Assembly: GCA_964589485.1 (NCBI GenBank)
Contig: CAZPRK010000009.1
Location: 1 to 37,172, forward strand
Direction of reading: 5' to 3'
DNA: 37,172 nucleotides
Source of the DNA: an uncultured Methanosarcinales archaeon
GTDB lineage: Archaea > Nanobdellota > Nanobdellia > Woesearchaeales > CAYSVS01
Part shown: in pieces, positions 3,001-26,934 of the stretch
Numbering within the stretch: the stretch's first letter is position 1
Layout of the letters: the number at the start of each line of letters is the position of its first letter
The notes under the pieces: generated by a model
Seen by the model: only the letters and a program-made list of their open reading frames with translations
The model's database searches: none
What the model was told of the DNA's origin: nothing
Made by a program: the position numbers and the translations under genes

Positions 3001-4287
3001 ATATTTAATGATAATGGTGTAACTTCGTTAAATTATGATTTGAAGTCAAATACCAAATACTATTTTAAAATAAAAGTTTGTGATGATGGCAATAAATGTG
3101 GAATAAGTAAATGTTCATCTTTTGTGACTGAATCTCAAAGTAGTTGTGCTTATTGTGACTTTGTAACAAAGTTAAATGCCCCAGCTGGTTGGAATGTAAG
3201 TTATGATTTAGACAGTGATTTAACTTATGAACATGTTCAAGGTGAAGTTTGTGGGAAAAGTGCAGGAATGAAAACCAACTATACTGATGGAAGAAGTGCA
3301 AACATTAAACTTTATAAAAATGATAATAGTACTTGGTTTGAATTTCATAATGTAAGAATAACTAAAACAGGAATGAGCAGTAGAATGAGCTCTATAAGTG
3401 ATGACACTGATTTACCAACAGGAACTACGACTGATGTGGGAGGAAATACAGTTGGATATGCAGGAATGTTAACTAGTACAAGAGATAAAGTAGTTAATAA
3501 CTTATTCCCTGAACAATGTTACATTAAAATACCGGGAACTGGGTCATGTACTGAGTTATGGCATTGTAAAAGTGACTTGACAACTTGTGTTGACAGAACA
3601 TCAGAAGCAATTTTGAATCAAACTGGTTCTGATTATTGTATATGGCAAATTCCTTTCTGTGACTTTTCAGCTTGGGCTGGAGGTCAACCTCAGTCAGGAT
3701 CTTCATCTTCTTCATCGTCTTCGTCTTCAGGTGGAGGCGGAGGAGGCGGCGGTGGCGGCGTTTCAGGTGGTGGTGGAAAGAAAGCTACAGAAGTTACTGT
3801 TTCATCTGCTTTGAAGACATATAGTATGAAGGCTGGAGATTTAATTCAGTTTAAAATTGAAAACGAAAATCACACTATTAAGTTAAAATCAACTTCAGGA
3901 AATAAAATAGTATTACAGTTTGCATCAACTCCATTTGATGTTTCTTTTAATGATGGAGAAACAAAAAATATAGATCTTGATAAAGATAATGTGTTTGATA
4001 TTCAAGTAGGTGTTAAGAAAAAATCTTTTAGTGAGATTGATTTAAACATAAAATTATTACCTAAACCTAGCTGTTCAGATGGAGTTAAAAATCAGAACGA
4101 AGAAGAGATAGATTGTGGCGGAGTTTGTAATAGTTGTGAGGTTGAAGTAGCAGAAGTTACTCCAATAGATCAAGAAAGTGTAGAAGAAGAAAAAGAAGAA
4201 ATTGTTGAAGAGTCTAATAATTATGTTTTAATTGGATTGGTTGCAATTTTATTATTATTTGCTATTATTTTCTTTAAGAACAATTAA
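1..4287 (+). CDS. Large Cys/Trp-rich cell-surface protein with C-terminal membrane anchor (probably 5'-truncated by the window edge)
   Basis: 1428-aa ORF open from base 1 with no signal peptide at the visible N-terminus. Many C-x-W/W-C repeats, a CWDGQDNNNDGKMDC motif, an FN3-like LKSNTKYYFKIKVCD segment, a Ser/Gly linker, a CSDGVKNQNEEEIDCGGVCNSC module, an acidic spacer and a terminal hydrophobic helix. Many N-x-S/T sequons. Confidence 0.8.
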   Translation: MPCEWINATERCGPRLDRIFEDGKENLITIDNQKSCEYAGGKWITENYCEGAISVPTGRCEAKFDEERNCNKACYACEYKSDGTNWSSSADAKEACIESKLGYCEFVANSDSFNGYGNCNVKDEFITGIAGNCDADCGSCSHKGDPTASDDNNKPSYFCRNSDAGCKWIPDLDNPNDEARGRCASNSEKTCSDRCDKCDTETQCSQYGQKKGNTSLEKQCNWDSTAIVKCQPKNGADELEICWDGQDNNNDGKMDCADSMCFSDPFCGGTTGTGAACFTADTEVVCKNTLTTDSNNCTWVNESWGSWCDIPGSDCWNHDGTNETFCESKGCSWHSNFGGFCEEDWEANDFSSCFSSNITTCGGNCTWVVDNWCQESGGWCEGKTGYSGSEFQNCWQYDDNGESTCNAATDLNGEQLCQWQQDSWCSTQGSNAGWCDHKKFTCWQYSHNQTACTNSSNTDWCQWRSDEWGSWCESKTSGSTSCWSQSNNASCVTAGCNWITGLCDPPGFGGHTFGGYSGNGSFSGTGNSCWKFDGNLTGCNNQSGCSFFTENKPFCNVEKNNNCNQYNSVAAGCNTTNGCFFSNESGNAWCSSIKEQCWNNVTLTNNQTLCNANSHCNWTISNEGWEGCEPTCFASQTEGECGSGCNWVSGWCSSGTVSEFFDDMEGGAPIELGRDAEGDASPNEIDILGFGMKDMGDAFGFGIGVKDLTNASLCNGKKIGFGTNAQSGTGKNTTKFFWYFDTDGTRTGNCALSHNSSAKGFEFYATAVYKWSTTANSLSEQYTVYRCTSGNWSVVDIKASGFPQKSCSEIGGGMIAIEKNDFERFPTLYTVGTDMRVTVATANAVGNITSPTDTASSGFATPGAVDFDLDSLDFFKLSSSNVQAKSLDNANKGYVSYSADCWTASGCSDYSCYNHPYCVSNSYGVHASGFEDTRTPKVIAISKEMYPNSSLISYFTDKPANGSLLFYHNDSTCSTLNYTVNDEALSSLERRNYSLLHFAEIFNDNGVTSLNYDLKSNTKYYFKIKVCDDGNKCGISKCSSFVTESQSSCAYCDFVTKLNAPAGWNVSYDLDSDLTYEHVQGEVCGKSAGMKTNYTDGRSANIKLYKNDNSTWFEFHNVRITKTGMSSRMSSISDDTDLPTGTTTDVGGNTVGYAGMLTSTRDKVVNNLFPEQCYIKIPGTGSCTELWHCKSDLTTCVDRTSEAILNQTGSDYCIWQIPFCDFSAWAGGQPQSGSSSSSSSSSSGGGGGGGGGGVSGGGGKKATEVTVSSALKTYSMKAGDLIQFKIENENHTIKLKSTSGNKIVLQFASTPFDVSFNDGETKNIDLDKDNVFDIQVGVKKKSFSEIDLNIKLLPKPSCSDGVKNQNEEEIDCGGVCNSCEVEVAEVTPIDQESVEEEKEEIVEESNNYVLIGLVAILLLFAIIFFKNN
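3700..3777 (+). repeat. Low-complexity (TCN)n(GGN)n tract encoding a poly-Ser/poly-Gly linker
   Basis: tcttcatcttcttcatcgtcttcgtcttca followed by ggtggaggcggaggaggcggcggtggcggc..., translating to SSSSSSSSSSGGGGGGGGGGVSGGGG. Confidence 0.9.
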
Positions 4288-5247
4288 AGCTTTATTGAAA
4301 GGGGTTTCTAAATCATATTTAATTTCATTTATGGTATGTTCATATAAAGGATCATAATATTTTTCAAGCATTGTAATTGTAAATTGTTCATATTCTTTAT
4401 TGTTAATATTACTTCTTAATTCTTCAATTACTTTATTAGATAATTTTTGTTTAAGTTTAGGTAAAATTTCTATAATGTAATCTAAATCTTTTTTTGTTAT
4501 ATTAGAAAAATATTCTTTTATGATTCTTTTTGCTCTATCTTTTAATGGACAAGTTATTTTAATTTTTTTACTTTTTTTCATTTTTTGCCATAAAAATTCA
4601 GGCATTTCAACTTTTCCGATTTTTCTTGATTCACCTTCAATAAATATATTTTTTTTATTTTCTAATTCTTTTAATTTATCGAATAATATTGCATCAAACA
4701 TTTTTTGACTTCTTGGTTTAAGACCAATTTTACCTAAAAGAGAGCTTCTATGTTGTGCAATGTCTTCAAGGTCTATTGTATCTTCTAATTCATGTAACAG
4801 TTCAGTTTTTCCTGCACCTGTAAGGCCATATAATACTGTTAATTTTGGCTTAAAATTAATACTCTTAAAGTAGTTTAGAACATAATTTCTATATGCTTTA
4901 TGCCCACCTTCTAGTTGTTTTACATAAAACCCTAGTGCATCTAAAAAATTAACAATAACTTTACTTCTCATTCCACCACGCCAACAATAAATTAAAAGTT
5001 TTTTATTTTTAAATTTAAAATAATCTTCCATCATTGTTGGCATTTTTTTAGAAAAAATATTAATACCTTCTTTAATTGCAATATTTTTACCTTCTTGTTT
5101 ATACAAAGTTCCTACTATTGCTCTTTCTTCATTTGTAAATAGAGGAATGTTTATAGCTTTAGGGATATGCGCTTCTTTAAATTCAGCAGGAGTTCTAGTA
5201 TCAATTATTATAAAATTTTCAGATTTAATTAATTCTTCGACTTTCAT
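4255..5247 (-). CDS. selU: tRNA 2-selenouridine synthase (rhodanese + P-loop, SelU/MnmH/YbbB)
   Basis: N-terminal rhodanese (IDTRTPAEF, HIPKAINIPL, VGTLYKQ, YCWRGGMRS), P-loop GLTGAGKT, DLEDIAQHRSS, EGESRKIG and YYDPLY motifs. Confidence 0.92.
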   Translation of the reverse strand: MKVEELIKSENFIIIDTRTPAEFKEAHIPKAINIPLFTNEERAIVGTLYKQEGKNIAIKEGINIFSKKMPTMMEDYFKFKNKKLLIYCWRGGMRSKVIVNFLDALGFYVKQLEGGHKAYRNYVLNYFKSINFKPKLTVLYGLTGAGKTELLHELEDTIDLEDIAQHRSSLLGKIGLKPRSQKMFDAILFDKLKELENKKNIFIEGESRKIGKVEMPEFLWQKMKKSKKIKITCPLKDRAKRIIKEYFSNITKKDLDYIIEILPKLKQKLSNKVIEELRSNINNKEYEQFTITMLEKYYDPLYEHTINEIKYDLETPFNKALIVLKENNSK

Positions 5248-11288: not shown

Positions 11289-11338
11289 TTTATAAAATTT
11301 TCCCTATTTTTTCCCTATTTTTTCGATTTATTTAAATA
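11289..11338. promoter_or_regulatory. Divergent promoter pair with tandem 11-bp direct repeats (candidate operator)
   Basis: TTTATAAA (11289-11296, ~22 nt from ATG 11267 minus) and TTTAAATA (11331-11338, plus) bracket TTTCCCTATTT x2 (11299-11309, 11310-11320) and a degenerate third unit. Confidence 0.55.
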
Positions 11339-11385
11339 CTAGGCGGATTTATTTGGTGTATACTCAAAAAACGGGGGAAGTTTAA

Positions 11386-12333
11386 ATGAACGATACAAAT
11401 GATATTGAAAAAAAAGGGGAAAGTCATTCTGGAATTAATAAAGAAGAAAATATTTCTAATGAAGTAATAGAAGAAACTAATAATCATAAAGAATTTGATA
11501 ATAAGGTTGAAATTTCTGAAAAGAAACATGAGCATAAAGAAAATGTAGAAGAAAAACTTACTCATGAAGAAGTTAAAAAGCCTGAAGTTGAAGTTTCTGA
11601 AAAGAAACATGAAGGAAGTAGCTTTAAAACAAAAAATATACATGCGAAACCAACTTATTTAAATAATCAACTTTCAATTATGATGGTGTTAGCAGCTGTG
11701 TTTATTTTATTAAATCAAATGCAAATAAATGCTTTATCTGATTCTTTATCTGGGAATTTAGGTTCTTCAGGTCATAGGCAAAGTGATTTGAGTAATATTG
11801 ATTTATCTCAATTAAAATCAACAGGGCATACTCTTGCTGCAGTTTATCCAATTGAGGATATAAAAAATGCAGAAGATGCAATGGCGATAATGTTTCCTAC
11901 AGGAAAACCTGATTATGGTGATGCTTTAGGTGTAACTTTTGATGATCCAGTAAATTCATTACAAACTTTAAATGACATGTATAGAGGATTAAAAGCTGAA
12001 GTTGAAAAGAAAGATCCTGATGCGTTTGCTAGATTTATTAATTTGGCTTCAAATCCTTATGGAGTTTCTTGTGAATATTGTTGCGGAATAGGACCTATTG
12101 GTTCAGACAAACAAGGAAATTCAAGGTGTGGATGTGCACATAATCCAGGAGTATTATCGGTAGCATTATATTTATCTGCTTATACGGATTATACAGATGG
12201 AGAAATTTTAAGAGAAGCAATGAGATGGAAAACATTATGGTTTCCAAAAAATATGATTGAGCTAGGAGCTAGCTTAGCAGGAGGAGATACTTCTGCATTA
12301 AAAGATTTACCAGGAATGGTAGGGGGGTGCTAG
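11386..12333 (+). CDS. Single-pass membrane protein with CEYCC...CGCAH cluster and C-terminal KDLPGMVGGC tail
   Basis: Acidic/His N-terminus, one TM helix (LSIMMVLAAVFILL), SCEYCCG...RCGCAH, ends in MVGGC-stop. GGGGG SD-like site upstream. Confidence 0.8.
   Translation: MNDTNDIEKKGESHSGINKEENISNEVIEETNNHKEFDNKVEISEKKHEHKENVEEKLTHEEVKKPEVEVSEKKHEGSSFKTKNIHAKPTYLNNQLSIMMVLAAVFILLNQMQINALSDSLSGNLGSSGHRQSDLSNIDLSQLKSTGHTLAAVYPIEDIKNAEDAMAIMFPTGKPDYGDALGVTFDDPVNSLQTLNDMYRGLKAEVEKKDPDAFARFINLASNPYGVSCEYCCGIGPIGSDKQGNSRCGCAHNPGVLSVALYLSAYTDYTDGEILREAMRWKTLWFPKNMIELGASLAGGDTSALKDLPGMVGGC
11506..11612 (+). repeat. 26-bp intragenic direct repeat (VE[I/V]SEKKHE twice)
   Basis: GTTGAAATTTCTGAAAAGAAACATGA (11506-11531) vs GTTGAAGTTTCTGAAAAGAAACATGA (11587-11612), 25/26 identical. 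Confidence 0.85.
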
Positions 12334-12336
12334 AAT

Positions 12337-12486
12337 ATGTATGAAATGTTAAAAACTTTATTTTTAGCAAAAAGGTATTTGTTGTTAGTTAGTATTATTG
12401 TTGTAGGACTTTTTTTAGTTGGGTGTAGCACTCAAGCAGGAAGTCCGCCACCATCTGGACCAATTGGCGGAGGGTGTGGAGGTTGA
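12337..12486 (+). CDS. Small lipoprotein-like peptide (49 aa) ending in GGGCGG; absent from the ORF track
   Basis: MYEMLKTLFLAKRYLLLVSIIVVGLFLVGCSTQAGSPPPSGPIGGGCGG*. Basic n-region, hydrophobic h-region, lipobox LVG|C. Starts 3 nt after the previous stop, and its TGA overlaps the next TTG start. Confidence 0.78.
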   Translation: MYEMLKTLFLAKRYLLLVSIIVVGLFLVGCSTQAGSPPPSGPIGGGCGG

Positions 12487-12866
12487 ATTACTCAAGTCAC
12501 ATTGAAAGAGAGCAAAGATTTGAACAACATAAACTTGAAAAAAAGAAAAAAAATCAAAAAATAATTGGAGTTTGTGTTGGGATTTTTTTGTTAATCTTAT
12601 CTGGGTTTGCTTATGTTAACTTATCACCTGGTAAATATGATGGGTTTGCTAAGTGTCTTACAGAAAAAGGAGTAGTTATGTATGGAGAGGATTGGTGTCC
12701 TTATACAAACGCTCAAAAAGGAATGTTTGGTAAGTCTTTCAAACATATTAACTATGTTGTTAAATCAGATCTTAAATTAAGACCAACTTGGGAAGTAGAT
12801 GGAGAAAGTTACGAAACAGTACAATCATTTCAAAGATTATCGGCTTTAACCGGTTGTAAATATTAG
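12483..12866 (+). CDS. Membrane-anchored thioredoxin-like protein with CxxT (WCPYT) site
   Basis: TM helix, then FAKCLTEKGVVMYGEDWCPYTNAQKGMFG...PTW...LTGC, resembling the VKOR-associated Trx-like domain. TTG 12483 chosen for GGAGG at 12469-12473 and the TTGA overlap. Confidence 0.75.
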   Translation: MNYSSHIEREQRFEQHKLEKKKKNQKIIGVCVGIFLLILSGFAYVNLSPGKYDGFAKCLTEKGVVMYGEDWCPYTNAQKGMFGKSFKHINYVVKSDLKLRPTWEVDGESYETVQSFQRLSALTGCKY

Positions 12867-12878
12867 GAGGAAATTAAA

Positions 12879-13103
12879 ATGGAAAAACCAACAGTTATTG
12901 CACTAGTATTAGGTGTATTAATAGTATTGTCAGCAGTACAAGCATTTCAATTAAATGCATTACAAGATAAATTAGAGGATGAAGATTTAACAGTTAAGTC
13001 TAGTCATTCTTCATCATCTGTAGCATCAAGCGGTGAGAGAAAAGCTCCATCTGCAGTTCCAGCAAGTATTAAAGACTTACCAACAATGGTCGGTGGATGT
13101 TAA
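12879..13103 (+). CDS. Small exported/anchored protein with Ser-rich linker and C-terminal KDLPTMVGGC tail
   Basis: Strong SD (AGGAGG), N-terminal hydrophobic helix, short coiled segment, low-complexity linker, MVGGC-stop. Confidence 0.85.
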   Translation: MEKPTVIALVLGVLIVLSAVQAFQLNALQDKLEDEDLTVKSSHSSSSVASSGERKAPSAVPASIKDLPTMVGGC

Positions 13104-13125
13104 TTTTTTAGTGGAGGTTTTTTAG

Positions 13126-14247
13126 ATGAAACATTATGGGAAAAAAGAATATACTAAATTGTATACTATTATGATTGTAGTTTTGGTTGCATTTACGGCA
13201 ATAAACTTAATTCAAAGTAGTAGTTTACAAGGGAAGTTAGTTGATAAGTTAGCTGAAATGAAGGAATTAAGTAGACCAGCTGAATTGGAATTAACTATCA
13301 TTAATTCAAATTGTAATGATTGTTTTGATATTTCTAGTATCGTAGATCAAGTTAAAAGTGGAAATGTAAATATTACAAATGAACTTAGTTTAAGTGCAGT
13401 AGAAGCTCAAGATTTAATTACTAAATATAACATAGAGAAATTGCCTTCATTAATTGTTAAAGGTGAACTTGAAAAAGTTCAATTAAGTAATTTTGATGAA
13501 AGTGAAGATGTATTATTATTTAGTCAACAACTTCCTCCTTTTGTAAATGTAAAAACAGGGAGTGTAGTAGGAAGAGTTACTGCAATTACAATTAGAGAAG
13601 AATCATGTGAAAAATGTTCAGATGTATCACAAATTTTAGCTGCAATGAAACAATCTCACATTAATATCATTTCTGAAAGAGTTATAGACTCTGATTCAAA
13701 AGAAGCTAGAAGTTTAATTACAAAATATGGAATAAGTAAATTACCAACTCTTGTTTTGTCTAGTGATATTAGAGCTTATAATAATGAAGTAACTCAAGCA
13801 CTTCCAGAGATTGGTGTCTTTGCTAATGATGGATCTTTTGTTACAAGAGAAGCAAATCCACCTTATTATGATTTGGCTACAAATAGTGTAAGAGGTTTAG
13901 TTGATTTAACTATTTTGAAAAGTTCAAGTTGTACTAACTGTTATGATGCAGAATCATTTCATGGTCCGATTATAGCAAGGTTAGGTATAGCATTGTCTGA
14001 TGTTAAAAAAGTAGATGTGAATTCAGCAGAAGGAAAAGAGTTAGTTAGTAAGTATAACGTTGTTGAAATACCAACAATTTTACTTAACGGAGATACTGAC
14101 TCTTATTCTCATTTACCTCAAATATGGGCAAATGTTGGAACTATTGAGCCAGATAAAACTTTTGTTTTTAGAAAAGTAAAAGAAATTACAAGACAAACTT
14201 ACTTTGATCTAAAACAAAATAAAGTTATTGAAGGTGGTCAACAATGA
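13126..14247 (+). CDS. Membrane-anchored protein with three tandem thioredoxin-fold CxxC domains
   Basis: CNDC...ITKYNIEKLPSLIV, CEKC...ITKYGISKLPTLVL and CTNC...VSKYNVVEIPTILL. N-terminal TM helix. GGAGG SD. Confidence 0.8.
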   Translation: MKHYGKKEYTKLYTIMIVVLVAFTAINLIQSSSLQGKLVDKLAEMKELSRPAELELTIINSNCNDCFDISSIVDQVKSGNVNITNELSLSAVEAQDLITKYNIEKLPSLIVKGELEKVQLSNFDESEDVLLFSQQLPPFVNVKTGSVVGRVTAITIREESCEKCSDVSQILAAMKQSHINIISERVIDSDSKEARSLITKYGISKLPTLVLSSDIRAYNNEVTQALPEIGVFANDGSFVTREANPPYYDLATNSVRGLVDLTILKSSSCTNCYDAESFHGPIIARLGIALSDVKKVDVNSAEGKELVSKYNVVEIPTILLNGDTDSYSHLPQIWANVGTIEPDKTFVFRKVKEITRQTYFDLKQNKVIEGGQQ

Positions 14248-14573: not shown

Positions 14574-15166
14574 AAAAACTACTTTTAATTTTATTTGGAA
14601 GTGGAATTTTGTTAAGTTTAATAGCTTTTTTTATTACAAGTTCATCAAATGTTGTTGGTGATAAAGAAATACTTGCAGAAATTGAAAGGGTTAGTAACTT
14701 ACCTTATAAGGTAGTTTCTTATGATAGTGTAACTCCTGCTGATTTGAAAAAATTATCTGAATTAAGTGCTAAAGATGAAATTGCTAAAAGTCTGATTGAT
14801 GAAGCTGTTTGGCTTTCATCAAATGATGAACACGAACATGTTGGTCATTCATTATATTATTTAGGTGAATACGTAAAAAAAGCAGAAGATGTTTTTTGTT
14901 TACCTCATGAATTAGAACATATTCAAATTTATTTAGAACATGATGCAATTGAGTTAGCTGAAAAACAAATTAGGATTGCTACAAAATATCAAAAAGATTG
15001 GTATGCTTCAACTGAAAGGAAATATAATAAATTTCCTCAATATTTTCCTAAGTATAGCGAATTGATATCAGCTACAAATAAAGCTTTAGAAAATTTAAAT
15101 AAAGGAGATTACGGAAAAGAAACAATGGAATTTATTGGTTTTTCCATTTATTATTCGATATGTTGA
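14570..15166 (+). CDS. Exported helical protein with His clusters (HEHVGH, CLPHELEH)
   Basis: N-terminal signal/anchor, His/Glu clusters, C-terminal Cys. Translationally coupled within the operon. Confidence 0.7.
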   Translation: MKKLLLILFGSGILLSLIAFFITSSSNVVGDKEILAEIERVSNLPYKVVSYDSVTPADLKKLSELSAKDEIAKSLIDEAVWLSSNDEHEHVGHSLYYLGEYVKKAEDVFCLPHELEHIQIYLEHDAIELAEKQIRIATKYQKDWYASTERKYNKFPQYFPKYSELISATNKALENLNKGDYGKETMEFIGFSIYYSIC

Positions 15167-16131
15167 AAATGAACAAAACAATTATATTAACATTGTTAGG
15201 AATGCTTTTGATTAGTGTAACTTATGTGGAAGCATCAGAAAATTTACCTATTGGTTTGCAGAAAATTATTGATTATAATAATGAACAAACTGCAGATTTT
15301 GCTTTAAAAATATCTTTTTTAATTGCATTTGTAGCTGGAATGTTGGGAATACTCTCCCCGTGTATTCTTCCATTTCTTCCAGCTTACTTTTCTTTAACAT
15401 TTAAAGAGAAAAAAAATGTGACTAAAATGACATTTATATTCTTTTTAGGATTTTCTTTTACTTTTGTATTTATGGGTGTTGTTGCAGGTTTTATCGGAGA
15501 GCATACATTATCGGTTTTACAAACTGGTTGGTTAGTTAGTATAGCCGGTGTATTTATGGTTTTAATGGGAATTATTGTATTAAAAGGTCAAAAAATGTGT
15601 AATTATGTTAATATAAAAACTTTAAATAAATATGGCGATGATACAATTGGAACTTTTTTATTTGGATTATTTTTTGCTCTTGGATGGACTGCATGCCTTG
15701 GTCCAATTTTAGGAGGGATATTAGGAATAGGAGCTATAATGGGTAATATTTGGAAAAGTGCATTACTTTTATTTTTCTACTCTCTTGGAAATTTAATTCC
15801 ATTATTTATTTTAAGTATTTTTTATGATAAATTTAAATTATCTGAAACAAAATTAATTAAAGGAAAAATGTTAAGTTTTAATTTTTTAGAAGATACTTAT
15901 CATATACATAGTACTAATTTAATATCTGGATTATTGTTTATTATATTAGGAATAACTGTTGTAATTTTTAATGGAACAAGAGTTTTTAATACGTGGGATT
16001 TTTTAGGAACTAAAGATTACTTTTACTCAATACAAGATGTTTTGATTAATTCGGGTTATGCAAATTATATAGGAATAGCAGCTTTTATTTTATTAGGTAT
16101 ATTATTTTATTGGTACAAATCACGATCGTAG
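15160..16131 (+). CDS. ccdA: CcdA/DsbD-beta family transmembrane thiol-disulfide transporter
   Basis: AGMLGILSPCILPFLPAY and LGWTACLGPILGGIL catalytic Cys motifs, YSLG..IP, multiple TM helices. Confidence 0.9.
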   Translation: MLKMNKTIILTLLGMLLISVTYVEASENLPIGLQKIIDYNNEQTADFALKISFLIAFVAGMLGILSPCILPFLPAYFSLTFKEKKNVTKMTFIFFLGFSFTFVFMGVVAGFIGEHTLSVLQTGWLVSIAGVFMVLMGIIVLKGQKMCNYVNIKTLNKYGDDTIGTFLFGLFFALGWTACLGPILGGILGIGAIMGNIWKSALLLFFYSLGNLIPLFILSIFYDKFKLSETKLIKGKMLSFNFLEDTYHIHSTNLISGLLFIILGITVVIFNGTRVFNTWDFLGTKDYFYSIQDVLINSGYANYIGIAAFILLGILFYWYKSRS

Positions 16132-16186
16132 CTGGCAATTTGAAAAATATACGTCCCCGTTGTATATTATCAAATTGTCAGTCTAC
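16128..16186 (+). other. Long imperfect inverted repeat (stem-loop) filling the ccdA / DUF255-ccdA intergenic gap
   Basis: GTAG-CTGGCAATTTGAAAAATATAC, loop GTCCCCGTT, GTATATTATCAAATTGTCAGTCTAC. About 22 pairable positions with small bulges. Confidence 0.65.
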
Positions 16187-16198
16187 TATATTTTAAAA

Positions 16199-18601
16199 AT
16201 GAAAAGGATAACTTTATTTATAATATTTTCTCTTTTTCTAGTTACATTTGTATCTGGTGAGTATACAAAAGAAACTTCTGAAGAGTTAGAACATTTAATT
16301 AATTGGCAGGAATATACTCCTAAAACTTTTCAAAAAGCCTTATCTGAAAAAAAACCAATTTATTTAGTGGTGTCTGCTCCTTCATGGTGTTATTGGTGTC
16401 ACGTTTATGAAAGTGAAGATTATTTGTATAATTCTGTTTTATATCCATACATAAATGAAAATTTTATTCCCGTTTTAGTTGATTCTGATAAAAGACCTGA
16501 TTTAACTAGGAAGTATTTAGAAGGGGGATGGCCGTCTACAACTATATTAGCTCCAAATATGCAAAGAATAAACGGATTTACTGGTCCAAGAGATCCAAAA
16601 GGTTTACAAGAATATCTTGAAAGCCTAATTATTTATTTAGTTGATAAAGACTTTTCTTTATTTGAAAATTCAATTGAATATAGTAAAATTGATGTTGTTT
16701 TACCTTCGGAAAATAATGATTTAAGAAAAAAATATCTTGACTTAGTTAAAAAAAATTATGATACTTTTTATGGTGGTTTTGGTTTAGGTAATGCTCCTAA
16801 ATGGAGGGAAGGACAAAAATTTCCAAGACCATTAACTTTGAAACTTTTTATGGAAGAATATGAAAAATCAGGTGATGAAATTTATTATGACATGGTATTA
16901 AAAACATTTGAAAATCAATTTACTAGTGATTTAGAAAATTATAAACTTTATGATCCTGTAGAAGGTGGGTTTCATAGATATTCTACAAAAAGGGATTGGA
17001 CAATTCCACATTATGAAAAAATGTTATATGATCAAGCTAAATTGATTAGTGTTTATTCTAAATTAGATGTTGCTGAATTAGTTGTAAACAAAAGTCTTGA
17101 TTTTATTTTTTCTAAATTTTATGATTCTGATGGAGGATTTTATTCTAGTCAAGATGCGCATTTGGAAAGTGAATACTTTGGTGAAAAAAATAGATCTGAA
17201 TTAGAGCAACCATTTATAGATAAAACAAGAAAAATAAATGATAATGCGTTAATGATAATTACTTTAATTGAGTTAGGTTATAATGAAGAAGCAAAAAAAA
17301 GTTTAGATTTTATTAAGAATAACATGTTGAGCGATGGTTTATTTTATTACTATGATCATGAATTAAAAAAACCATTTCTTGATGGACAAAGTTTATCCAA
17401 TTCATATGGATTATTGGCTTTTATTTCTGCATATGAAAAATATGGTGAATATTTAGATGAATCTAAACAAATAGCAGATTATTCTTTAGATAATTTGTAT
17501 GATTGGAACAGTGCAGGATTTTTTGAAAGGAATAGTAAAAACATTAATTTTTATGCATTAAATGAAAGAATTAGTTTAAATAGGAATTATGAAGAAAACG
17601 CAGTTTTTGTTTATGGTTTGATTAAGTTATATTTATCTACTAATGATGATAAATATTTAGATCCGTCTTTGAAAACTTTAGGTTACTTAGTTCAAAATTT
17701 TCAATTTAGTGATGAAAGTTATTACGTTATTAAATCTTTAGAGTTAGTTAATGAAAATAATTTAATTAATAAACATAAAACTTTTAGCAGAGATAATTTT
17801 TGGTTAAATGATTTATTGGATGTAAAAAGTAATACTATTTCTTTAGATGATGCTCCATTGTTAAAACCAGAATTTGCTGATGTTAGTACTGTTATTTTAA
17901 TATTAGTTTCTTTTTTAGTTGGCTTGCTAAGTTTTTTATCTCCTTGTACTTTACCTATTCTTCCTGTATATTTTGCAGTTAATATTAATTCAAAAAAATC
18001 TATAAAAGATACTTTATTGTTTGTTATAGGTGTAGCCTTAATTTTTAGTTTATTTGGAATGGGTGCTGGATTTGTTGGAAGTTATTTGAAAGATTATAGA
18101 AGCATAGTAACAAAAATAGCTGGTTTATTGATTATATTATTTGGAATTTTAGAATTAAAAGGTAAAGGGTTTTCTGGGTTTAAGATAAATAAAAAAATTG
18201 AAAATAGCTTTTTATTAGGTTTAACCTTTGGAATTGGTTGGAGTGCTTGTATTGGTCCAATATTAGCTTCTTTCCTTTTATTAGCAAGTACAAGTGGAAC
18301 TATCTTTAAAGGAACTTTATTGTTATTTATTTATGCATTAGGGTTATGTTTACCTTTAATTTTAATATCTCCATTTTTTGATAAGTTTAAGAAAACTAAG
18401 TATTGGGAGTATCTTAAAGGAAGAGAAATATATGGAATGCATTCTACTTACTTGATTTCTGGTTTGATTTTAATTATATTAGGTATATTGATTTATTTTG
18501 ATTTCTTGTTTAGTTTAAATGAATATGCTTTACAAAGTGAATATGTTCAGAAAGTAATAATTACTGGAGAAGAATTTTTAAAAAAAGTATTTTTAAGATA
18601 G
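16199..18601 (+). CDS. Exported DUF255/YyaL (thioredoxin + alpha/alpha barrel) protein fused to a C-terminal CcdA domain
   Basis: Signal peptide from ATG 16199. WCYWCHV, DKRPDL, GGWPST, KFP, GGFHRYS, IPHYEKMLYDQA and GGFYSSQDA, then LSPCTLPILP and GWSACIGPILA. Confidence 0.88.
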   Translation: MKRITLFIIFSLFLVTFVSGEYTKETSEELEHLINWQEYTPKTFQKALSEKKPIYLVVSAPSWCYWCHVYESEDYLYNSVLYPYINENFIPVLVDSDKRPDLTRKYLEGGWPSTTILAPNMQRINGFTGPRDPKGLQEYLESLIIYLVDKDFSLFENSIEYSKIDVVLPSENNDLRKKYLDLVKKNYDTFYGGFGLGNAPKWREGQKFPRPLTLKLFMEEYEKSGDEIYYDMVLKTFENQFTSDLENYKLYDPVEGGFHRYSTKRDWTIPHYEKMLYDQAKLISVYSKLDVAELVVNKSLDFIFSKFYDSDGGFYSSQDAHLESEYFGEKNRSELEQPFIDKTRKINDNALMIITLIELGYNEEAKKSLDFIKNNMLSDGLFYYYDHELKKPFLDGQSLSNSYGLLAFISAYEKYGEYLDESKQIADYSLDNLYDWNSAGFFERNSKNINFYALNERISLNRNYEENAVFVYGLIKLYLSTNDDKYLDPSLKTLGYLVQNFQFSDESYYVIKSLELVNENNLINKHKTFSRDNFWLNDLLDVKSNTISLDDAPLLKPEFADVSTVILILVSFLVGLLSFLSPCTLPILPVYFAVNINSKKSIKDTLLFVIGVALIFSLFGMGAGFVGSYLKDYRSIVTKIAGLLIILFGILELKGKGFSGFKINKKIENSFLLGLTFGIGWSACIGPILASFLLLASTSGTIFKGTLLLFIYALGLCLPLILISPFFDKFKKTKYWEYLKGREIYGMHSTYLISGLILIILGILIYFDFLFSLNEYALQSEYVQKVIITGEEFLKKVFLR

Positions 18602-19932: not shown

Positions 19933-20358
19933 ATGAAAAAAGGAATAGATTATACTGGAATAACTGTAGTATTTTTTTGTCATGATGGGCAGGGAAATTT
20001 TCTTTTAGCAAAAAGAAGTACTTCTTGTAGGGATGAACATGGAAGATGGGACCCTGGCGGAGGGGCATTAGAAGTAGGATATTCTGTAGAAGAAACTTTA
20101 AGAAAGGAAATATTTGAAGAATATGGTACTTCAGTAATTGATTTAGAATTTTTAGGTTATAGAGATGTTCATAGAGAAAAAACTCATTGGATTGCATTAG
20201 ATTTTAAAGTTCGTGTTGATAGAATTAAAGTAAAAAACAACGAACCTCATAAATTTGATGAAATAGGTTGGTTTAAATTAGATAATTTGCCTCAACCCTT
20301 ACATAGCCAAATGGGGATATACTTGGAAAAATATAAAGATAAACTTATTTTTTCTTAA
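19933..20358 (+). CDS. NUDIX hydrolase
   Basis: Nudix box GGALEVGYSVEETLRKEIFEEYG, plus NEPHKFDEIGWF. Confidence 0.9.
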   Translation: MKKGIDYTGITVVFFCHDGQGNFLLAKRSTSCRDEHGRWDPGGGALEVGYSVEETLRKEIFEEYGTSVIDLEFLGYRDVHREKTHWIALDFKVRVDRIKVKNNEPHKFDEIGWFKLDNLPQPLHSQMGIYLEKYKDKLIFS

Positions 20359-21235
20359 CAACCTTATGTCCGCCAAATTCATTCCTTACGGCTGAAATTA
20401 CTTTTTTACCTAAATTAAATTTATTACTTTTGTCTTTTCTAATTTTAACTGATTCTTTAAAAGCAGGGGTATATCCTCTAACTGATTTAACTGTATTTTG
20501 TAGTTCATCTATTGTTACACTACCTATTTCTTTGCTAATATTATTAAAATCAGGTCTTCTTAAAGCGATAGTGGTTAAGTCAACTAACCAACTTCTGATT
20601 ACTGATGAATCTTGCCATCCTTCTGTTGCTTCATCTAACTTAATGTTATGCTTAAATTTATTTAATAATTCAATTCCTTCAGCTAAGCCTTGAAGGTAAG
20701 TATATTCAACTATATTGTGTACACTTTTAACAAAATGTCCAGATCCAGCAGGTCCAAAATATTTATATCCTTTTTTTGTAGAAAGTGTTTTCATAAAAGG
20801 CTCTATATATTTGTATTGGCTTTTTGGGCCACCGATCATTAAAGGATATCCGTTTTTTAAACCCCATATTCCTCCTGAAACTCCAACGTCAAAAAAATAA
20901 ATTCCTTTTTCTTTACACCATTTATCATGTTTTTCTGCATTTTTATAAAATGAATTAGCTCCATTGATTATAATATCACCTTTATTTAATAAAGCTAAAA
21001 TTTGTTTCATGTTTGAATCTGTGACATTCCCTGTAGGTAGCATTAACCAAACTATTTTTTTCTTTCCTAATTTTTGGACAAATTCTTTTAAGTTATAAGC
21101 TGGAATTGCGCCTTTTTTAGCAATAGATTTAACTTTATCTGGGCTTCTGTTATATGCAACTACTGAATGTTTTTTTAGAAGTCTTTGAACCATATTGTAT
21201 CCCATTCTACCTAACCCAATAAAGCCAATTTTCAT
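20345..21235 (-). CDS. gnd: 6-phosphogluconate dehydrogenase, short-chain decarboxylating type
   Basis: GLGRMG Rossmann motif, AYNRS, WLMLP, DVGVSGGIWG, GSGHFVKSVHNIVEY, SVIRSWL and RNEFGGH. Confidence 0.93.
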   Translation of the reverse strand: MKIGFIGLGRMGYNMVQRLLKKHSVVAYNRSPDKVKSIAKKGAIPAYNLKEFVQKLGKKKIVWLMLPTGNVTDSNMKQILALLNKGDIIINGANSFYKNAEKHDKWCKEKGIYFFDVGVSGGIWGLKNGYPLMIGGPKSQYKYIEPFMKTLSTKKGYKYFGPAGSGHFVKSVHNIVEYTYLQGLAEGIELLNKFKHNIKLDEATEGWQDSSVIRSWLVDLTTIALRRPDFNNISKEIGSVTIDELQNTVKSVRGYTPAFKESVKIRKDKSNKFNLGKKVISAVRNEFGGHKVVKKK

Positions 21236-22518
21236 ATTATATCACCAAGTTTACTTTTTTTGTTATATTTAATTAATTTCTTTTTTTTAATTTTATCTAC
21301 AATTTTCCATTGATATTCTATTTCATCATTTCTCATAAACACAGAATGGTCTCCTTTGATTACATCTTCTAAAAGTTTTTCATAAGCTTCTGGTGAATTT
21401 GGAAAGTGACAATTGTAACAAAAATCCATGTTAATTGGAATTATTTTTGAACTAAAAGGAGATTTAGCGTTTAAAGCCATTTTAAACCCTTGTTGAGGTT
21501 GTATGTCTAAGATTAATTTATTACTTTCTAATTCACAATTAAACAATACGCAAGGTGCTTCTTTAAATTCAATTGTAATATTTGAACTTCTTTCAGATAA
21601 ATTTTTTCCAGTTGTTAAAAAGAAAGGAACGCCTTTCCAACGAGAATTGTTAATTGACATTTCAACTGAAGCAAAAGTTTCAGTATTAGATTTATGACCA
21701 ACTTCTTTAACATATTCTTTATATTGGCCAAGGATTGTTTTATTTATTTTTGCTTTTTTTAAGACTTTTACCTTTTCATTCCTTATAAATTTTGATTCTA
21801 ATTTTTTAGGTTTTTCCATAGCAACTAATGCTAATAATTGTAATAAATGGTTTTGAAGTACATCTTTAATTGCTCCGTACTTATCATAAAATTTTGCTCT
21901 GGTTTCAACTCCAAAATCCTCTTGTACTAAAATGTTTATTTTTTTAATATGTTTATTGTTCCAAATGGGTTCAAATATTTTATTTGTAAACCTTAATATT
22001 GCCAAATTTTGAACAGTATCTTTTCCAAGGTAATGGTCTATTCTGTAGATCTCTTTTTCTTTAAAATGTTTTTTTATTGTTTTATTAATATCTTTGGCTG
22101 ATTTTAAATCATTACCAAAAGGTTTTTCAAAAACAATTTTACCTTTAAGTTTATTTTTACTGAAATTATTTATTATTGATTTAAAATGTTGAGGAAGAGT
22201 AGCTAAATAGAATATTTTTTCACTTTTTAATTTATGTTTTTTTTCAACATTTTTAATGAAAGAATCTAAATTATTAAATTTATCAGAATAAAAATCACTC
22301 TCAAAATGATATGTTTTTGAATTAAGTTTTTTTAAAACATTATCATCAGGTTTTTTAATATATTTTTTTGATTCTAAAATTATGTTGATTTTACTTCTGG
22401 AAACTCCAATTATTGCAAATTTATTTAATTTTTCTTTTTTAACTAGCTTATAGATTGCTGGAATTAATTTCTTTTTGGTTAAATCTCCGCTAGCACCTAA
22501 AATTACAAATGTAGTCAT
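21232..22518 (-). CDS. zwf: Glucose-6-phosphate 1-dehydrogenase (bacterial type)
   Basis: GASGDL..KKLIPA, EKPFG.DL.SA, RIDHYLGK, DVLQNHLLQ, TETF, RWKGVPF and EAYEKLL. Confidence 0.96.
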   Translation of the reverse strand: MTTFVILGASGDLTKKKLIPAIYKLVKKEKLNKFAIIGVSRSKINIILESKKYIKKPDDNVLKKLNSKTYHFESDFYSDKFNNLDSFIKNVEKKHKLKSEKIFYLATLPQHFKSIINNFSKNKLKGKIVFEKPFGNDLKSAKDINKTIKKHFKEKEIYRIDHYLGKDTVQNLAILRFTNKIFEPIWNNKHIKKINILVQEDFGVETRAKFYDKYGAIKDVLQNHLLQLLALVAMEKPKKLESKFIRNEKVKVLKKAKINKTILGQYKEYVKEVGHKSNTETFASVEMSINNSRWKGVPFFLTTGKNLSERSSNITIEFKEAPCVLFNCELESNKLILDIQPQQGFKMALNAKSPFSSKIIPINMDFCYNCHFPNSPEAYEKLLEDVIKGDHSVFMRNDEIEYQWKIVDKIKKKKLIKYNKKSKLGDII

Positions 22519-23294
22519 TTTAATAATTTAGCATATTCGGGAATAATATCTTTTGTGAATGATTTTATACCTTCATCTGTTTTTTTATGTTCAAGTAATT
22601 CTTTGATTACATTATATGGCAGAGTAGATATGTCTGCTCCATTAACTGCACATTCTCTTACTTGTCTTGAATTTCTTAAGGATGCAGCTAAAACTTCACA
22701 TTTAATATTATATTTTTTGAAAATTATTTTTATTTGTTCTACTAAGTCAACTCCCGAAACAATACCATTATCCTCTAACTTTCTCATTCCTTCTTCTGGA
22801 AAATATTCTGTTTTGTTGAATTTTAGTTTATGTTTTGTTCTAATATAATCATCCATTCTCCCTGCAAATGGACTTATAAATTTTGCTCCAGCTTTTGCTG
22901 CTAATAAAGCTTGTTCTGGAGTGAAAATAAGAGTACAATTAATAGGAATATTTTTTTTTGATAAATATTTAATAGCTCTAATTCCATCATAACTATTATT
23001 AGTATTTACTGGAATTTTAATATAAACATTTTTTGCAATAGGGTTAAACATCTTAAATAATTTAAGTCCTTGTTTAACCATTCCTTCATAACTTAGTTCA
23101 GTAACTTCTAAAGATACAGGTGTGCCTTTGGCAAGAATTAGAATTTTTTTAATATAATTCTTCATATCTTTTGTTTTATGTTTTAATCCTGCTTTTTTAA
23201 TTAAACTAGGGTTAGTTGTTACTCCATCTACTATTCCCATAGTATAAGCATCTTTAATTTCATCTATATCTGCTGAATCAATAAAAATTTTCAA
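22515..23294 (-). CDS. tal: Transaldolase (small TalC/FSA fold)
   Basis: FIDSAD, GVTTNPSL, SLEV, IKIP, NCTLIF..EQA, ISPFAGR and AASLR. The Glu in SLEV and Phe in SPF favour transaldolase over FSA. TTG 23294 follows a GAGGTG SD. Confidence 0.88.
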   Translation of the reverse strand: MKIFIDSADIDEIKDAYTMGIVDGVTTNPSLIKKAGLKHKTKDMKNYIKKILILAKGTPVSLEVTELSYEGMVKQGLKLFKMFNPIAKNVYIKIPVNTNNSYDGIRAIKYLSKKNIPINCTLIFTPEQALLAAKAGAKFISPFAGRMDDYIRTKHKLKFNKTEYFPEEGMRKLEDNGIVSGVDLVEQIKIIFKKYNIKCEVLAASLRNSRQVRECAVNGADISTLPYNVIKELLEHKKTDEGIKSFTKDIIPEYAKLLK

Positions 23295-23418
23295 AAATAA
23301 CACCTCTTTAATGAAATTAAGAAATTAAGATATATAAATTTATGTTTTTTTAACTAAAATTTACTTTATTGTTATTTAATCAAAACATTAATAAATAATA
23401 GAAATTTAAAAACAAGAT

Positions 23419-24072: not shown

Positions 24073-24251
24073 TTCAGGAATTATAAAAATTAAACTAATT
24101 GAAAAAATAATACTTAGTTTATTTGAAATGAATAAATTTTCTCCAAAGAATGAATATTATCAATAAGAGAAAAGTTAATTATTTTGTTTAGTATAATAAA
24201 TAAAACACTAATTCTTACTATTCACAATATTCCCTTAAATATTTTATTCAT
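24073..24251 (-). pseudogene. Possible decayed membrane-protein gene remnant
   Basis: An ATG overlapping the pgl stop gives MNKIFKGIL*IVRISVLFIILNK. Another frame gives FFGENLFISNKLSIIFSISLIFII. Weak signal in AT-rich DNA. Confidence 0.2.
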
Positions 24252-26872: not shown

Positions 26873-26934
26873 TTAGTTTAAATTTTATTTTAGTTTTAAT
26901 AAACTATGTCTTAATGTTCAAAATGTAGTTTGTT

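What the first reader, a model, noticed from the sequence alone, without database searches (positions are those of the whole stretch)
12337..12486. Hidden 49-aa lipoprotein ending in the SoxY-type GGCGG
Absent from the supplied ORF track but fills the gap exactly (3-nt spacing upstream, TTGA overlap downstream). After lipobox LVG|C the mature part is only 20 aa, CSTQAGSPPPSGPIGGGCGG: an anchor, a Pro/Gly spacer and GGCGG-COOH, identical to the terminus of the SoxY sulfur-carrier arm. A carrier arm without a folded domain would be unusual. Convergence with SoxY is an inference.
Basis: partly seen in the sequence, partly recalled or inferred. Interest (0 to 1): 0.78.

Follow-up and report, generated by a model that had tools for sequence, protein, structure and literature searches.

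The report
Tiny lipid-anchored peptide with one thiol
The 49-codon gene is real and conserved in tiny DPANN archaea, where it encodes a domain-less lipoprotein-like peptide with one exposed cysteine and almost always sits just before a one-cysteine thioredoxin-like gene; its likeness to the sulfur carrier SoxY is only superficial.

Summary
The ORF at 12337-12486 (+) is as described and is a real gene. Two database searches found 553 relatives (E<=0.01) and 301 representative clusters (E<=1e-3), none with a Pfam or NCBIfam family. It occurs in 23 of 80 related DPANN loci. Its codons vary synonymously while the peptide is kept (pS 0.78, pN 0.16). Only three things are conserved: a signal peptide with a lipobox cysteine, a low-complexity spacer, and [IV]GGGC.

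The SoxY-like GGCGG end is not conserved: 7 of 36 short forms have it. Others end GGGC or GGGCG, and 213 of 250 collected members carry GGGCGV plus an 18-30 aa tail. SoxY membership fails.

The informative association is with the next gene. That gene is a membrane-anchored, VKOR-type thioredoxin-like protein whose CxxC is always C-x-[YF]-T (20 of 20). It directly follows 22 of 24 copies of the peptide gene, in several gene orders.

The locus also encodes two DPANN families ending in LPxMVGGC, a triple thioredoxin and two CcdA proteins.

Best reading (inferred, not shown): a lipid-tethered peptide thiol that serves as the second, resolving cysteine or co-substrate of the one-cysteine thioredoxin-like protein on the cell surface.

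The parts
12337..12486 (+). LIPO: the 49-aa small ORF including its stop codon. It is a short-form member of a DPANN family of domain-less lipobox peptides with a conserved GGGC.
   Evidence: sequence. (P0002, 71% identical; P0003). (553 relatives at E<=0.01). (301 representative clusters at E<=1e-3). (present in 23 of 80 related loci). (pS 0.777, pN 0.157).
12337..12423 (+). Signal peptide (residues 1-29): an n-region with K6, K12 and R13, a hydrophobic core, and lipobox L27-V28-G29 before Cys30.
   Evidence: helix 2-31. (K/R in the n-region in 240 of 250; position -1 is G in 225, A in 12 and S in 8 of 250). No signal-peptide predictor was available.
12424..12426 (+). Cys30, the lipobox +1 cysteine and presumed lipidation site.
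   Evidence: Invariant in A2 (24 of 24) and A4 (43 of 43). Lipidation itself is inferred.
12427..12465 (+). Low-complexity spacer STQAGSPPPSGPI.
   Evidence: One search gives the spacer composition over the family: G 23%, Q 14%, S 12.5%, P 11%, Y 9%, His and Met 0.1% each. One search shows coil.
12466..12483 (+). GGGC (G44-C47) plus the two non-conserved terminal Gly residues. Cys47 (12475-12477) is the single free thiol of the mature peptide.
   Evidence: G45 and C47 are invariant and G44 and G46 nearly invariant. The endings vary. The codons vary synonymously.
12322..12329 (+). GGGGGGTG, a Shine-Dalgarno-like site 7 nt before the LIPO ATG. It is formed by the Gly-Gly-Cys codons of the upstream gene.
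   Evidence: Internal operon genes in this window (12879, 13126, 14244, 31897) have GGAGG/AGGTG(A)-type sites 6-8 nt upstream.
12469..12476 (+). GGAGGGTG, a Shine-Dalgarno-like site 6 nt before TTG 12483 of the downstream gene. It lies inside the Gly-Gly-Cys codons of LIPO, so these bases have a dual use in this window.
   Evidence: This is not general: GGAGG is absent from the last 8 codons in 5 of 12 homologous copies.
12483..12866 (+). TRX: a membrane-anchored thioredoxin-like protein (start TTG 12483, or GTG 12474) with the one-cysteine active site WCPYT. It is the conserved downstream partner gene of LIPO.
   Evidence: VKOR-linked Trx-like domain 3kp8/3kp9, E 7e-8 to 3e-7; its WCPHC aligns with WCPYT. 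(C58, C72, T75, P101-T102-W103 and C125 invariant in 20 of 20). (adjacency).
11386..12333 (+). BIG: a 315-aa DPANN-specific membrane protein with a Cys cluster (SCEYCCG...CGC.HNP) and the invariant C-terminus LPGMVGGC.
   Evidence: 378 relatives. (invariant columns). (the tail is present in 81 of 81 sources). (no family). (helical model, no PDB fold match at E<=0.001).
12879..13103 (+). MINI: a 74-aa protein made of a membrane anchor, a Ser/Ala/Gly linker and the C-terminus LPTMVGGC.
   Evidence: (this type of ORF is present in 73 of 81 sources).
13126..14247 (+). Membrane-anchored protein with thioredoxin-like domains carrying CNDC, CEKC and CTNC motifs.
   Evidence: Its cluster is present in 69 of 81 sources.
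15160..16131 (+). CcdA/DsbD-type transmembrane thiol-disulfide transporter.
   Evidence: PF02683, E 5.6e-18. Its cluster is present in 65 of 81 sources.
16160..18601 (+). DUF255 (thioredoxin-like) domain fused to a second CcdA/DsbD transmembrane domain.
   Evidence: PF03190, E 6e-18; PF02683, E 4e-15.

Best explanation
The ORF is a real gene of a DPANN archaeon. It is made with a signal peptide ending in a lipobox. After export, the mature product would be a roughly 20-residue, unstructured, lipid-anchored peptide on the outer face of the membrane. Its only reactive group is the thiol of Cys47, held in a flexible Gly-rich context ([IV]GGGC).

It is co-transcribed and translationally coupled with the next gene. 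That gene encodes a membrane-anchored thioredoxin-like protein of the kind fused to bacterial VKOR, in which the second active-site cysteine is always threonine (C-x-Y/F-T).

My proposal is that the peptide thiol supplies in trans what that enzyme lacks. It would attack the mixed disulfide that the single active-site cysteine forms with a substrate, as glutathione does for one-cysteine (CPYS) glutaredoxins. The peptide-peptide or peptide-protein disulfide formed would then be recycled by the CxxC thioredoxins and CcdA electron importers of the same operon.

What is shown: the gene is real; its three conserved features; the absence of a fold; the gene pairing; the one-cysteine active site of the partner. 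What is inferred: lipidation, the surface location, any contact between the two proteins, and the direction of electron flow.
For: 1. It is a real gene under selection at the peptide level.
- homologue P0002 has an almost identical mature part and a diverged signal peptide.
- 553 relatives at E<=0.01 among 4164 candidates.
- 301 representative clusters at E<=1e-3, of which 32 at <=1e-10.
- over the 9 codons PSGP[IV]GGGC in 12 copies (66 pairs), pS is 0.777 and pN is 0.157.

2. Architecture.
- the lipobox Cys and the GGGC Cys are invariant.
- exactly two Cys in 233 of 250.
- coil after residue 31.

3. Pairing with TRX.
- of 24 LIPO genes (23 loci plus the window), 22 are directly followed by a C-x-[YF]-T thioredoxin-like gene. 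L002 and L003 carry identical copies, so they are not independent.
- Of 24 such TRX genes, 22 have LIPO directly upstream. One (L078) has a membrane-anchored peptide ending YGAGCGR instead, and one (L026) has an MsrB-like gene.
- None of the 10 canonical CxxC paralogues in the same loci has such an upstream ORF.
- The pair keeps together in different orders: BIG-LIPO-TRX-MINI, BIG-MINI-LIPO-TRX, LIPO-TRX-BIG-MINI, and kilobases away from BIG.
- The LIPO stop and the TRX start overlap or lie 0-21 nt apart in the 12 loci with an unambiguous ATG start.

4. The partner looks like an active enzyme with one cysteine.
- homology to the VKOR-linked Trx-like domain.
- Thr at the second position in 20 of 20; the PTW (cis-Pro type) motif and two flanking Cys are invariant.

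5. Context.
- the operon carries CxxC thioredoxins and two CcdA domains.

6. Precedent.
- PMC7286987 (passages read): natural one-cysteine CPYS glutaredoxins (Grx6 and Grx7, in the secretory pathway) are active with glutathione by a monothiol mechanism.
Against: - There is no direct evidence of any interaction or of expression.
- LIPO is absent from the fetched stretch in 57 of 80 related loci. It is therefore an accessory module, or lies elsewhere in those genomes.
- Two LIPO genes (L057, L071) are followed by the multi-thioredoxin gene and not by TRX. One TRX gene (L026) has no LIPO.
- Most family members (213 of 250) carry an 18-30 aa acidic tail after the Cys. My model does not explain this tail, and it may mean processing or a different role.
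- BIG and MINI also end in GGC, so all three tails may serve one unknown machinery that has nothing to do with TRX.
- Gene adjacency reflects shared ancestry as well as function.
- Whether this organism makes a low-molecular-weight thiol of its own is unknown.
Confidence: 0.42

Rival explanations
1. It is a SoxY-like sulfur carrier arm. Cys47 would carry sulfane sulfur or thiosulfate-derived adducts between enzymes, as SoxY does, but without the SoxY domain.
For: The window copy ends in GGCGG, the same five residues as the carboxy-terminus of SoxY. In SoxY, that cysteine binds the sulfur substrate (PMC6067878, passage read). The arm is flexible.
Against: GGCGG is present in only 7 of 36 short forms and in none of the 213 long forms. 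There is no SoxY domain hit. No SoxZ, SoxAX, SoxB or other sulfur-oxidation gene appears in the window or among the recurrent neighbours. The nearby rhodanese domain belongs to MnmH (358 bits against a cut-off of 241). The conserved neighbour is a thiol-disulfide oxidoreductase.
Confidence: 0.07
2. It is a thiolate arm for a thiophilic metal such as Cu(I). Alone, or together with the LPxMVGGC tails of BIG and MINI, it would bind metal pumped out of the cell or hand it on.
For: Related loci often carry metal genes. A heavy-metal P-type ATPase with an HMA domain is in 18 of 81 sources. A BlaI/CopY-type repressor is in 17 and an M48 peptidase in 19. An ArsR regulator and an ArsP permease are also present. 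In the hit sequences printed by the HMM searches I recognised motifs that recall CuA-type cupredoxins and DUF411/CopG; that recognition is from memory and no family search confirmed it. BIG homologues have His-rich N-termini and a Cys cluster. The BIG and MINI tails put Met next to Cys.
Against: The LIPO spacer has almost no His or Met (0.1% each), and there is one free thiol per peptide. LIPO is not enriched in loci with the ATPase: 6 of those 18 loci have LIPO or the L078 variant, against 23 of 80 overall. The specific, order-independent neighbour is TRX and not a metal gene.
Confidence: 0.15
3. Cys47 is a site of covalent attachment or processing and not a redox group. Possibilities are a second lipid, a cross-link to another surface protein, or cleavage of the tail after GGGCG in the long forms by an unknown enzyme that also recognises the (M)VGGC ends of BIG and MINI.
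For: Three neighbouring gene products share a hydrophobic-Gly-Gly-Cys end. Long forms have a sharply defined tail of 18-30 residues (mode 23) after GGGCGV, and short forms stop exactly there, which looks like a propeptide boundary. An LGT-domain protein (PF01790, E 2.9e-36) lies in 14 of the 80 loci.
Against: No candidate processing enzyme is consistently linked. The BIG fold matches nothing known. This reading does not explain why the linked thioredoxin-like gene has lost its second cysteine in every case.
Confidence: 0.15
4. The peptide has no function of its own. The ORF would be a leader or translational-coupling device, for example through PPP stalling, that sets expression of the downstream gene. 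Alternatively it is a frameshifted piece of that gene.
For: The overlap is tight (TTGA). The SD for the next gene lies inside the last codons. The window copy has a PPP motif.
Against: The lipobox Cys and the GGGC Cys are invariant, with pN far below pS. GGAGG is missing in 5 of 12 copies. PPP is absent from most long forms. The two ORFs are separate, with varying gaps and frames, in the loci compared.
Confidence: 0.04

Closest known systems
SoxY, the sulfur-carrier subunit of the Sox thiosulfate-oxidising system
   Same: A flexible C-terminal Gly-rich arm presents one cysteine outside the cytoplasm. The window copy ends in the same five residues, GGCGG (PMC6067878, passage).
   Different: There is no SoxY domain and no Sox partner genes. 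GGCGG is not conserved in the family (7 of 36 short forms, 0 of 213 long forms). The anchor is a lipobox and not a folded carrier protein.
Glutathione working with one-cysteine class I glutaredoxins (yeast Grx6/Grx7, active site CPYS)
   Same: An oxidoreductase with a thioredoxin fold, a C-P-Y-(S/T)-type one-cysteine site and a location outside the cytosol needs an external thiol to resolve its mixed disulfide (PMC7286987, passages). Most copies of the peptide have Cys-Gly, as glutathione does.
   Different: The thiol here would be a ribosomal, membrane-tethered peptide. The enzyme belongs to the VKOR-linked Trx-like group and not to the glutaredoxins: the glutaredoxin hits have E 0.11-0.19, against 7e-8 for 3kp8. 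No activity has been shown.
CcdA-dependent surface thioredoxin systems, such as the Streptococcus pneumoniae Etrx1/Etrx2 lipoproteins with CcdA and MsrAB2
   Same: CcdA is encoded together with surface-anchored thioredoxin-fold proteins. An MsrB-like gene sits beside TRX in L026 (recognised by its motifs from memory, no family search run). I saw only the abstract of PMC3914529, in the search listing.
   Different: The known systems use CxxC thioredoxin lipoproteins. None has a domain-less peptide thiol or a one-cysteine thioredoxin paired with it. The statement about the known systems is from memory.
Thioredoxin-like domain of bacterial VKOR homologues (PDB 3kp8, 3kp9)
   Same: This is the closest solved relative of the partner protein TRX. 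The FA..L, YG..WC and PTW blocks align.
   Different: VKOR-linked domains have CPHC, while TRX has C-x-Y/F-T in 20 of 20. No VKOR domain was found in the window.

Membership tests
SoxY | SoxY carrier domain (Pfam SoxY-type fold) | tested here: not met
   One search gives no Pfam family at E<=0.01 and no NCBIfam family. The mature part is 20 aa and is modelled as coil.
SoxY | Conserved carboxy-terminal GGCGG | tested here: not met
   The window copy has it. Within the family only 7 of 36 short forms do, and none of the 213 long forms. Only GGGC is conserved.
SoxY | Genomic association with SoxZ and the Sox enzymes | tested here: not met
   None is found among the 41 window ORFs scanned or among the recurrent neighbour clusters of the 80 loci.
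Lipobox lipoprotein (bacterial-type signal, also predicted in archaea) | Lipobox [LVI][ASTVI][GAS]C at the end of a hydrophobic core, preceded by a positively charged n-region | tested here: met
   The window has LVGC. A strict match is found in 198 of 250 and a relaxed one in 240 of 250. K/R is in the n-region in 240 of 250. The Cys is invariant.
Lipobox lipoprotein (bacterial-type signal, also predicted in archaea) | A lipidating enzyme is present in the organism (Lgt, or archaeal AliA/AliB) | tested here: inconclusive
   None is in the 37-kb window. An LGT-domain protein (PF01790, 125 bits against a cut-off of 24.9) is in 14 of the 80 related loci, but it scores below the NCBIfam Lgt cut-offs. 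AliA was not searched for.
Lipobox lipoprotein (bacterial-type signal, also predicted in archaea) | Thioether-linked lipid on the +1 Cys and cleavage of the signal peptide | not testable with these tools
   This needs mass spectrometry or labelling.
Monothiol oxidoreductase plus thiol co-substrate (tested as 'works like', not as a family) | A partner enzyme with a thioredoxin fold and a single active-site cysteine | tested here: met
   (3kp8, E 7.3e-8). (C72 and T75 invariant in 20 of 20; PTW invariant).
Monothiol oxidoreductase plus thiol co-substrate (tested as 'works like', not as a family) | A specific link between the enzyme and the thiol carrier | tested here: met
   The link is by gene adjacency only: 22 of 24 in both directions, and 0 of 10 for the CxxC paralogues.
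Monothiol oxidoreductase plus thiol co-substrate (tested as 'works like', not as a family) | Mixed-disulfide formation, or activity that depends on the thiol | not testable with these tools
   This needs biochemistry.

The most novel reading that the evidence does not exclude
DPANN archaea encode their extracellular 'glutathione' in a gene. It would be a lipid-tethered, roughly 20-residue peptide whose single Cys(-Gly) thiol is the diffusible-thiol substitute for a dedicated one-cysteine thioredoxin-like enzyme. Together with the LPxMVGGC-ended BIG and MINI proteins, it would form a set of membrane-tethered thiol arms, kept reduced through CcdA, on a cell surface that has no periplasm to retain small thiols.
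Probability: 0.3. Interest if true: 0.85.

Novelty: new variant of a known kind. Interest (0 to 1): 0.62.

Why it matters
If the pairing is functional, it shows a new way to run thiol-disulfide chemistry outside a cell, with a genetically encoded, membrane-tethered peptide thiol in place of a small-molecule thiol or a second active-site cysteine. It would give a first handle on a conserved and completely unannotated surface redox locus of DPANN archaea (BIG, MINI, LIPO, TRX, multi-thioredoxin, CcdA). These organisms live attached to other cells and are barely studied experimentally. It also shows that 40-70 codon genes with only three conserved features can be recognised by synteny. The prediction is directly testable with a synthetic peptide and one recombinant domain.

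Tried and rejected
- Complex prediction of TRX residues 44-127 (alignment A3) with LIPO residues 20-49 (alignment A4) gave no verdict. The scores were 0.22 and 0.25 against a mark of 0.32, and the controls were not run. This counts neither for nor against binding.
Accessions and names of the nearest homologues therefore stayed unseen.
- Fold search of the BIG model (mean pLDDT 69.9) against the PDB gave 0 matches at E<=0.001 out of 130 at E<=10.
- Protein-atlas look-ups of BIG 135-315 and of LIPO gave only unnamed clusters with scores of 0.82-0.86, which are leads at most.
- Rfam at E<=1 over 11300-13300, both strands, gave no match. An RNA element is not indicated.
- Literature searches found nothing on this family. 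'MVGGC' gave 6 papers, none relevant. 'DPANN, lipoprotein, Lgt' gave 5 papers. For 'DPANN, CcdA, thioredoxin, disulfide', none of the 12 listed papers contains DPANN.
- Leader-peptide, frameshift and SD-only readings were rejected on the grounds given under the rival explanations.
- I noted that short forms go with TRX motifs YGED/YGEN and long forms with YGA... I did not use this, because it may only reflect shared ancestry.
No signal-peptide or lipoprotein predictor was available.

Full report
**The observation.** An ATG at 12337 opens a 49-codon frame that ends with TGA at 12484-12486. It starts 3 nt after the stop of the upstream gene and overlaps a possible TTG start of the downstream gene (TTGA). 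The product is MYEMLKTLFLAKRYLLLVSIIVVGLFLVGCSTQAGSPPPSGPIGGGCGG, with LVGC at residues 27-30 and 20 residues from Cys30 to the end.

The window is archaeal: it carries ribosomal protein S3Ae, RNase P Rpr2 and DUF835. It has about 25% G+C. Relatives of its genes come from Woesearchaeota and other DPANN bins. Short open frames are common in such DNA, so length is not evidence. However, only three stop-to-stop frames of >=25 aa in the whole window end in a GGC/CGG-type tail, and they lie side by side on the + strand. They are the 315-aa upstream protein (...DLPGMVGGC), this ORF, and a 74-aa protein (...DLPTMVGGC).

**Is it a gene?** Yes.
- A search with the single sequence found two other proteins. 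P0002 is 71% identical, with an almost unchanged mature part and a diverged signal peptide. P0003 was the second.
- I fetched 80 loci that encode relatives of the upstream protein: 176 were confirmed of 206 pattern matches and the best 80 were kept. A family HMM finds the small ORF in 23 of these 80 loci. Thirteen are 'short' like the window. Ten are 'long', with the same lipobox, spacer and GGGC followed by GV and about 20-25 more residues. It is absent from the fetched stretch in 57 loci, some of which are cut by contig ends.
- A profile of 24 members found 553 proteins at E<=0.01 in the 5.8-billion set. It found 301 representative clusters at E<=1e-3 in the 1.84-billion set. Where a source names them, the name is usually 'hypothetical protein', apart from two evidently automatic JGI labels. 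None carries a precomputed Pfam domain, and the window copy hits no Pfam or NCBIfam family.
- Across 12 of the 14 short-form DNA copies, the nine codons for PSGP[IV]GGGC differ mostly synonymously (66 pairs, pS 0.777, pN 0.157). I left out L003, which is identical to L002, and the 5'-cut L027. All four Gly codons and both Cys codons are used.
- No Rfam family matches the region.

**What is conserved.**
- In the 24-row alignment only the lipobox Cys, G45 and Cys47 are invariant; G29, G44 and G46 are nearly so. In 43 short forms C30, G44, G45 and C47 are invariant.
- Of 250 collected members, 198 match the strict lipobox and 240 a relaxed one. 240 have K/R in the n-region, and 233 have exactly two cysteines.
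- The spacer is G/Q/S/P/Y/A-rich, with 0.1% His and 0.1% Met.
- An AlphaFold2 model from the 43-row alignment gives a helix for residues 2-31 and coil with pLDDT 53-56 afterwards.
- The product is therefore an anchor, a floppy spacer and one thiol.
- Lipoproteins are predicted to be prevalent in DPANN (PMC12462473, passages read). Lipidation of this peptide is inferred.

**The SoxY idea.** SoxY does end in GGCGG, with a sulfur-binding Cys (PMC6067878, passage), and the window copy matches that literally. The family does not.
- After the Cys, the 36 short forms have G (19), nothing (8), GG (8, of which 7 give GGCGG and one gives GSCGG) or GLQ (1).
- 213 of 250 members continue as GGGCGV plus an 18-30 residue acidic tail, most often 23 residues.
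- There is no SoxY domain. No Sox gene is in the window or among the recurrent neighbours.
- The rhodanese domain at 4255-5247 belongs to tRNA 2-selenouridine synthase MnmH.
- Membership in SoxY is rejected. The resemblance is limited to a flexible Gly-rich arm with one cysteine.

**The Shine-Dalgarno question.** In this window, internal operon genes have GGAGG/AGGTG(A)-type sites 6-8 nt upstream.
- The Gly-Gly-Cys codons of the upstream gene form such a site 7 nt before the LIPO ATG (12322-12329).
- LIPO's own Gly-Gly-Cys codons form one 6 nt before TTG 12483 (12469-12476).
- This is a real dual use here. It is not the explanation for the codons, because 5 of 12 homologous copies have no GGAGG in the last eight codons and still encode GGGC.

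**The partner gene.** The downstream protein (12483-12866) has an N-terminal membrane anchor and a domain homologous to the thioredoxin-like domain fused to Synechococcus VKOR (3kp8, E 7.3e-8; 3kp9 and 4nv2, about 3e-7). The VKOR domain has WCPHC where this protein has WCPYT.

In 20 orthologues the first Cys, the Thr at the position of the second Cys, the PTW motif and two flanking Cys are invariant. The linkage to LIPO is tight.
- Of 24 LIPO genes, 22 are immediately followed by this C-x-[YF]-T gene. The exceptions are L057 and L071, where the multi-thioredoxin gene follows.
- Of 24 such TRX genes, 22 have LIPO directly upstream. L078 has a membrane-anchored peptide ending YGAGCGR, and L026 has an MsrB-like gene.
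- None of the 10 canonical CxxC paralogues in the same loci has such an upstream ORF.
- The pair stays together while its place relative to the other genes changes.
- The LIPO stop and the TRX start overlap or lie 0-21 nt apart in the 12 loci with an unambiguous ATG start.

**The wider locus.** The upstream protein (BIG) belongs to a large DPANN family (378 relatives). It has an invariant Cys cluster and the invariant end LPGMVGGC. The tail is present in 81 of 81 sources, and a MINI-type anchor-linker-LPxMVGGC ORF in 73 of 81. BIG has no family assignment, and its helical model matches no PDB fold.

The recurrent neighbours, out of 81 sources, are:
- a multi-thioredoxin protein, in 69;
- CcdA, in 65;
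- a DUF835 regulator, in 23;
- an M48 peptidase, in 19, and a BlaI/CopY-like repressor, in 17;
- a heavy-metal P-type ATPase, in 18;
- an LGT-domain protein, in 14;
- DoxX, in 13.

The setting is therefore extracytoplasmic thiol-disulfide chemistry, with some metal-related genes nearby.

**Mechanism.** I take LIPO to be a lipid-tethered peptide thiol that works with the one-cysteine TRX. Its Cys47 would resolve, or form, the mixed disulfide that TRX's single active-site cysteine makes with a substrate. This is the role glutathione plays for natural CPYS glutaredoxins of the secretory pathway (PMC7286987, passages). Recycling would go through the operon's CxxC thioredoxins and CcdA.

- Shown: the gene, its anatomy, the pairing, and the loss of the second cysteine in the partner.
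- Inferred: lipidation, contact between the two proteins, and the direction of electron flow.
- Not explained: the acidic tail of the long forms, and the parallel LPxMVGGC ends of BIG and MINI.
- Confidence in the mechanism is about 0.4.
- The rivals are a metal-thiolate arm, a site of covalent attachment or processing shared with BIG and MINI, a SoxY-like sulfur carrier, and a mere leader ORF. Each is set out with its evidence in the Rival explanations section.

**Novelty.** The searches I ran found no paper on this family or on the LPxMVGGC proteins. I class it as a new variant of a known kind of system, namely CcdA-linked surface thiol-redox modules. The bolder reading is a gene-encoded, tethered substitute for a small-molecule thiol. 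That reading is open and testable with a synthetic peptide and one recombinant domain.

Noticed in passing
window 11386-12333 and 12879-13103; all of L001-L080: Two unannotated DPANN protein families end in the same C-terminal motif, [LV]Px[MQ]VGGC. One is BIG, of about 230-320 aa, with the Cys cluster SCEYCCG...CGC.HNP and often a His-rich N-terminus. The other is MINI, of about 70 aa, made of an anchor and a linker. BIG-type tails are present in 81 of 81 sources and MINI-type in 73 of 81. Neither has a Pfam or NCBIfam family, and the BIG model matches no PDB fold.
   Followed up: partly
L035:12042-13424 and 13 other loci (L004, L005, L025, L040, L047, L049, L055, L058, L060, L067, L069, L071, L080): A 461-aa membrane protein with a clear LGT domain (PF01790, E 2.9e-36, 125 bits against a cut-off of 24.9) lies near BIG in 14 of 80 DPANN loci. 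It scores below the NCBIfam Lgt cut-offs. PMC12462473 (passages) states that no archaeal Lgt homologues had been identified. Contamination of the bins or gene transfer was not examined.
   Followed up: partly
window 12483-12866; A3: The VKOR-type thioredoxin-like protein has Thr in place of the second active-site Cys (C-x-Y/F-T) in 20 of 20 orthologues. CxxC paralogues occur elsewhere in the same loci.
   Followed up: yes
window 20345-28861 (- strand): There is a run of pentose-phosphate genes: 6-phosphogluconate dehydrogenase, glucose-6-phosphate dehydrogenase (zwf, 454 bits against a cut-off of 400.6), transaldolase, 6-phosphogluconolactonase, ribulose-phosphate 3-epimerase and RpiB. It encloses a class I FAD pyridine-nucleotide-disulfide oxidoreductase (25475-26872) that stays below every named NCBIfam cut-off. 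From memory, an oxidative pentose-phosphate branch is unusual for archaea. The substrate of the disulfide reductase is unknown.
   Followed up: partly
window 1-4287: A 1428-aa ORF is open at the 5' end and has no Pfam family. Its G+C is higher than the rest of the window (0.34 against about 0.25), with a strong GC skew.
   Followed up: no
window 4255-5247 (-): tRNA 2-selenouridine synthase MnmH is present (358 bits against a cut-off of 241). This implies selenium use in tRNA by this DPANN archaeon.
   Followed up: no
L078:6708-6860 and L041:8800-8979: Two edge variants of the small peptide were seen. In L078 a membrane-anchored peptide without a lipobox, ending YGAGCGR, sits before a C-S-Y-T TRX. 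In L041 a lipobox peptide ending GSMCEG follows directly after BIG, with no TRX.
   Followed up: no
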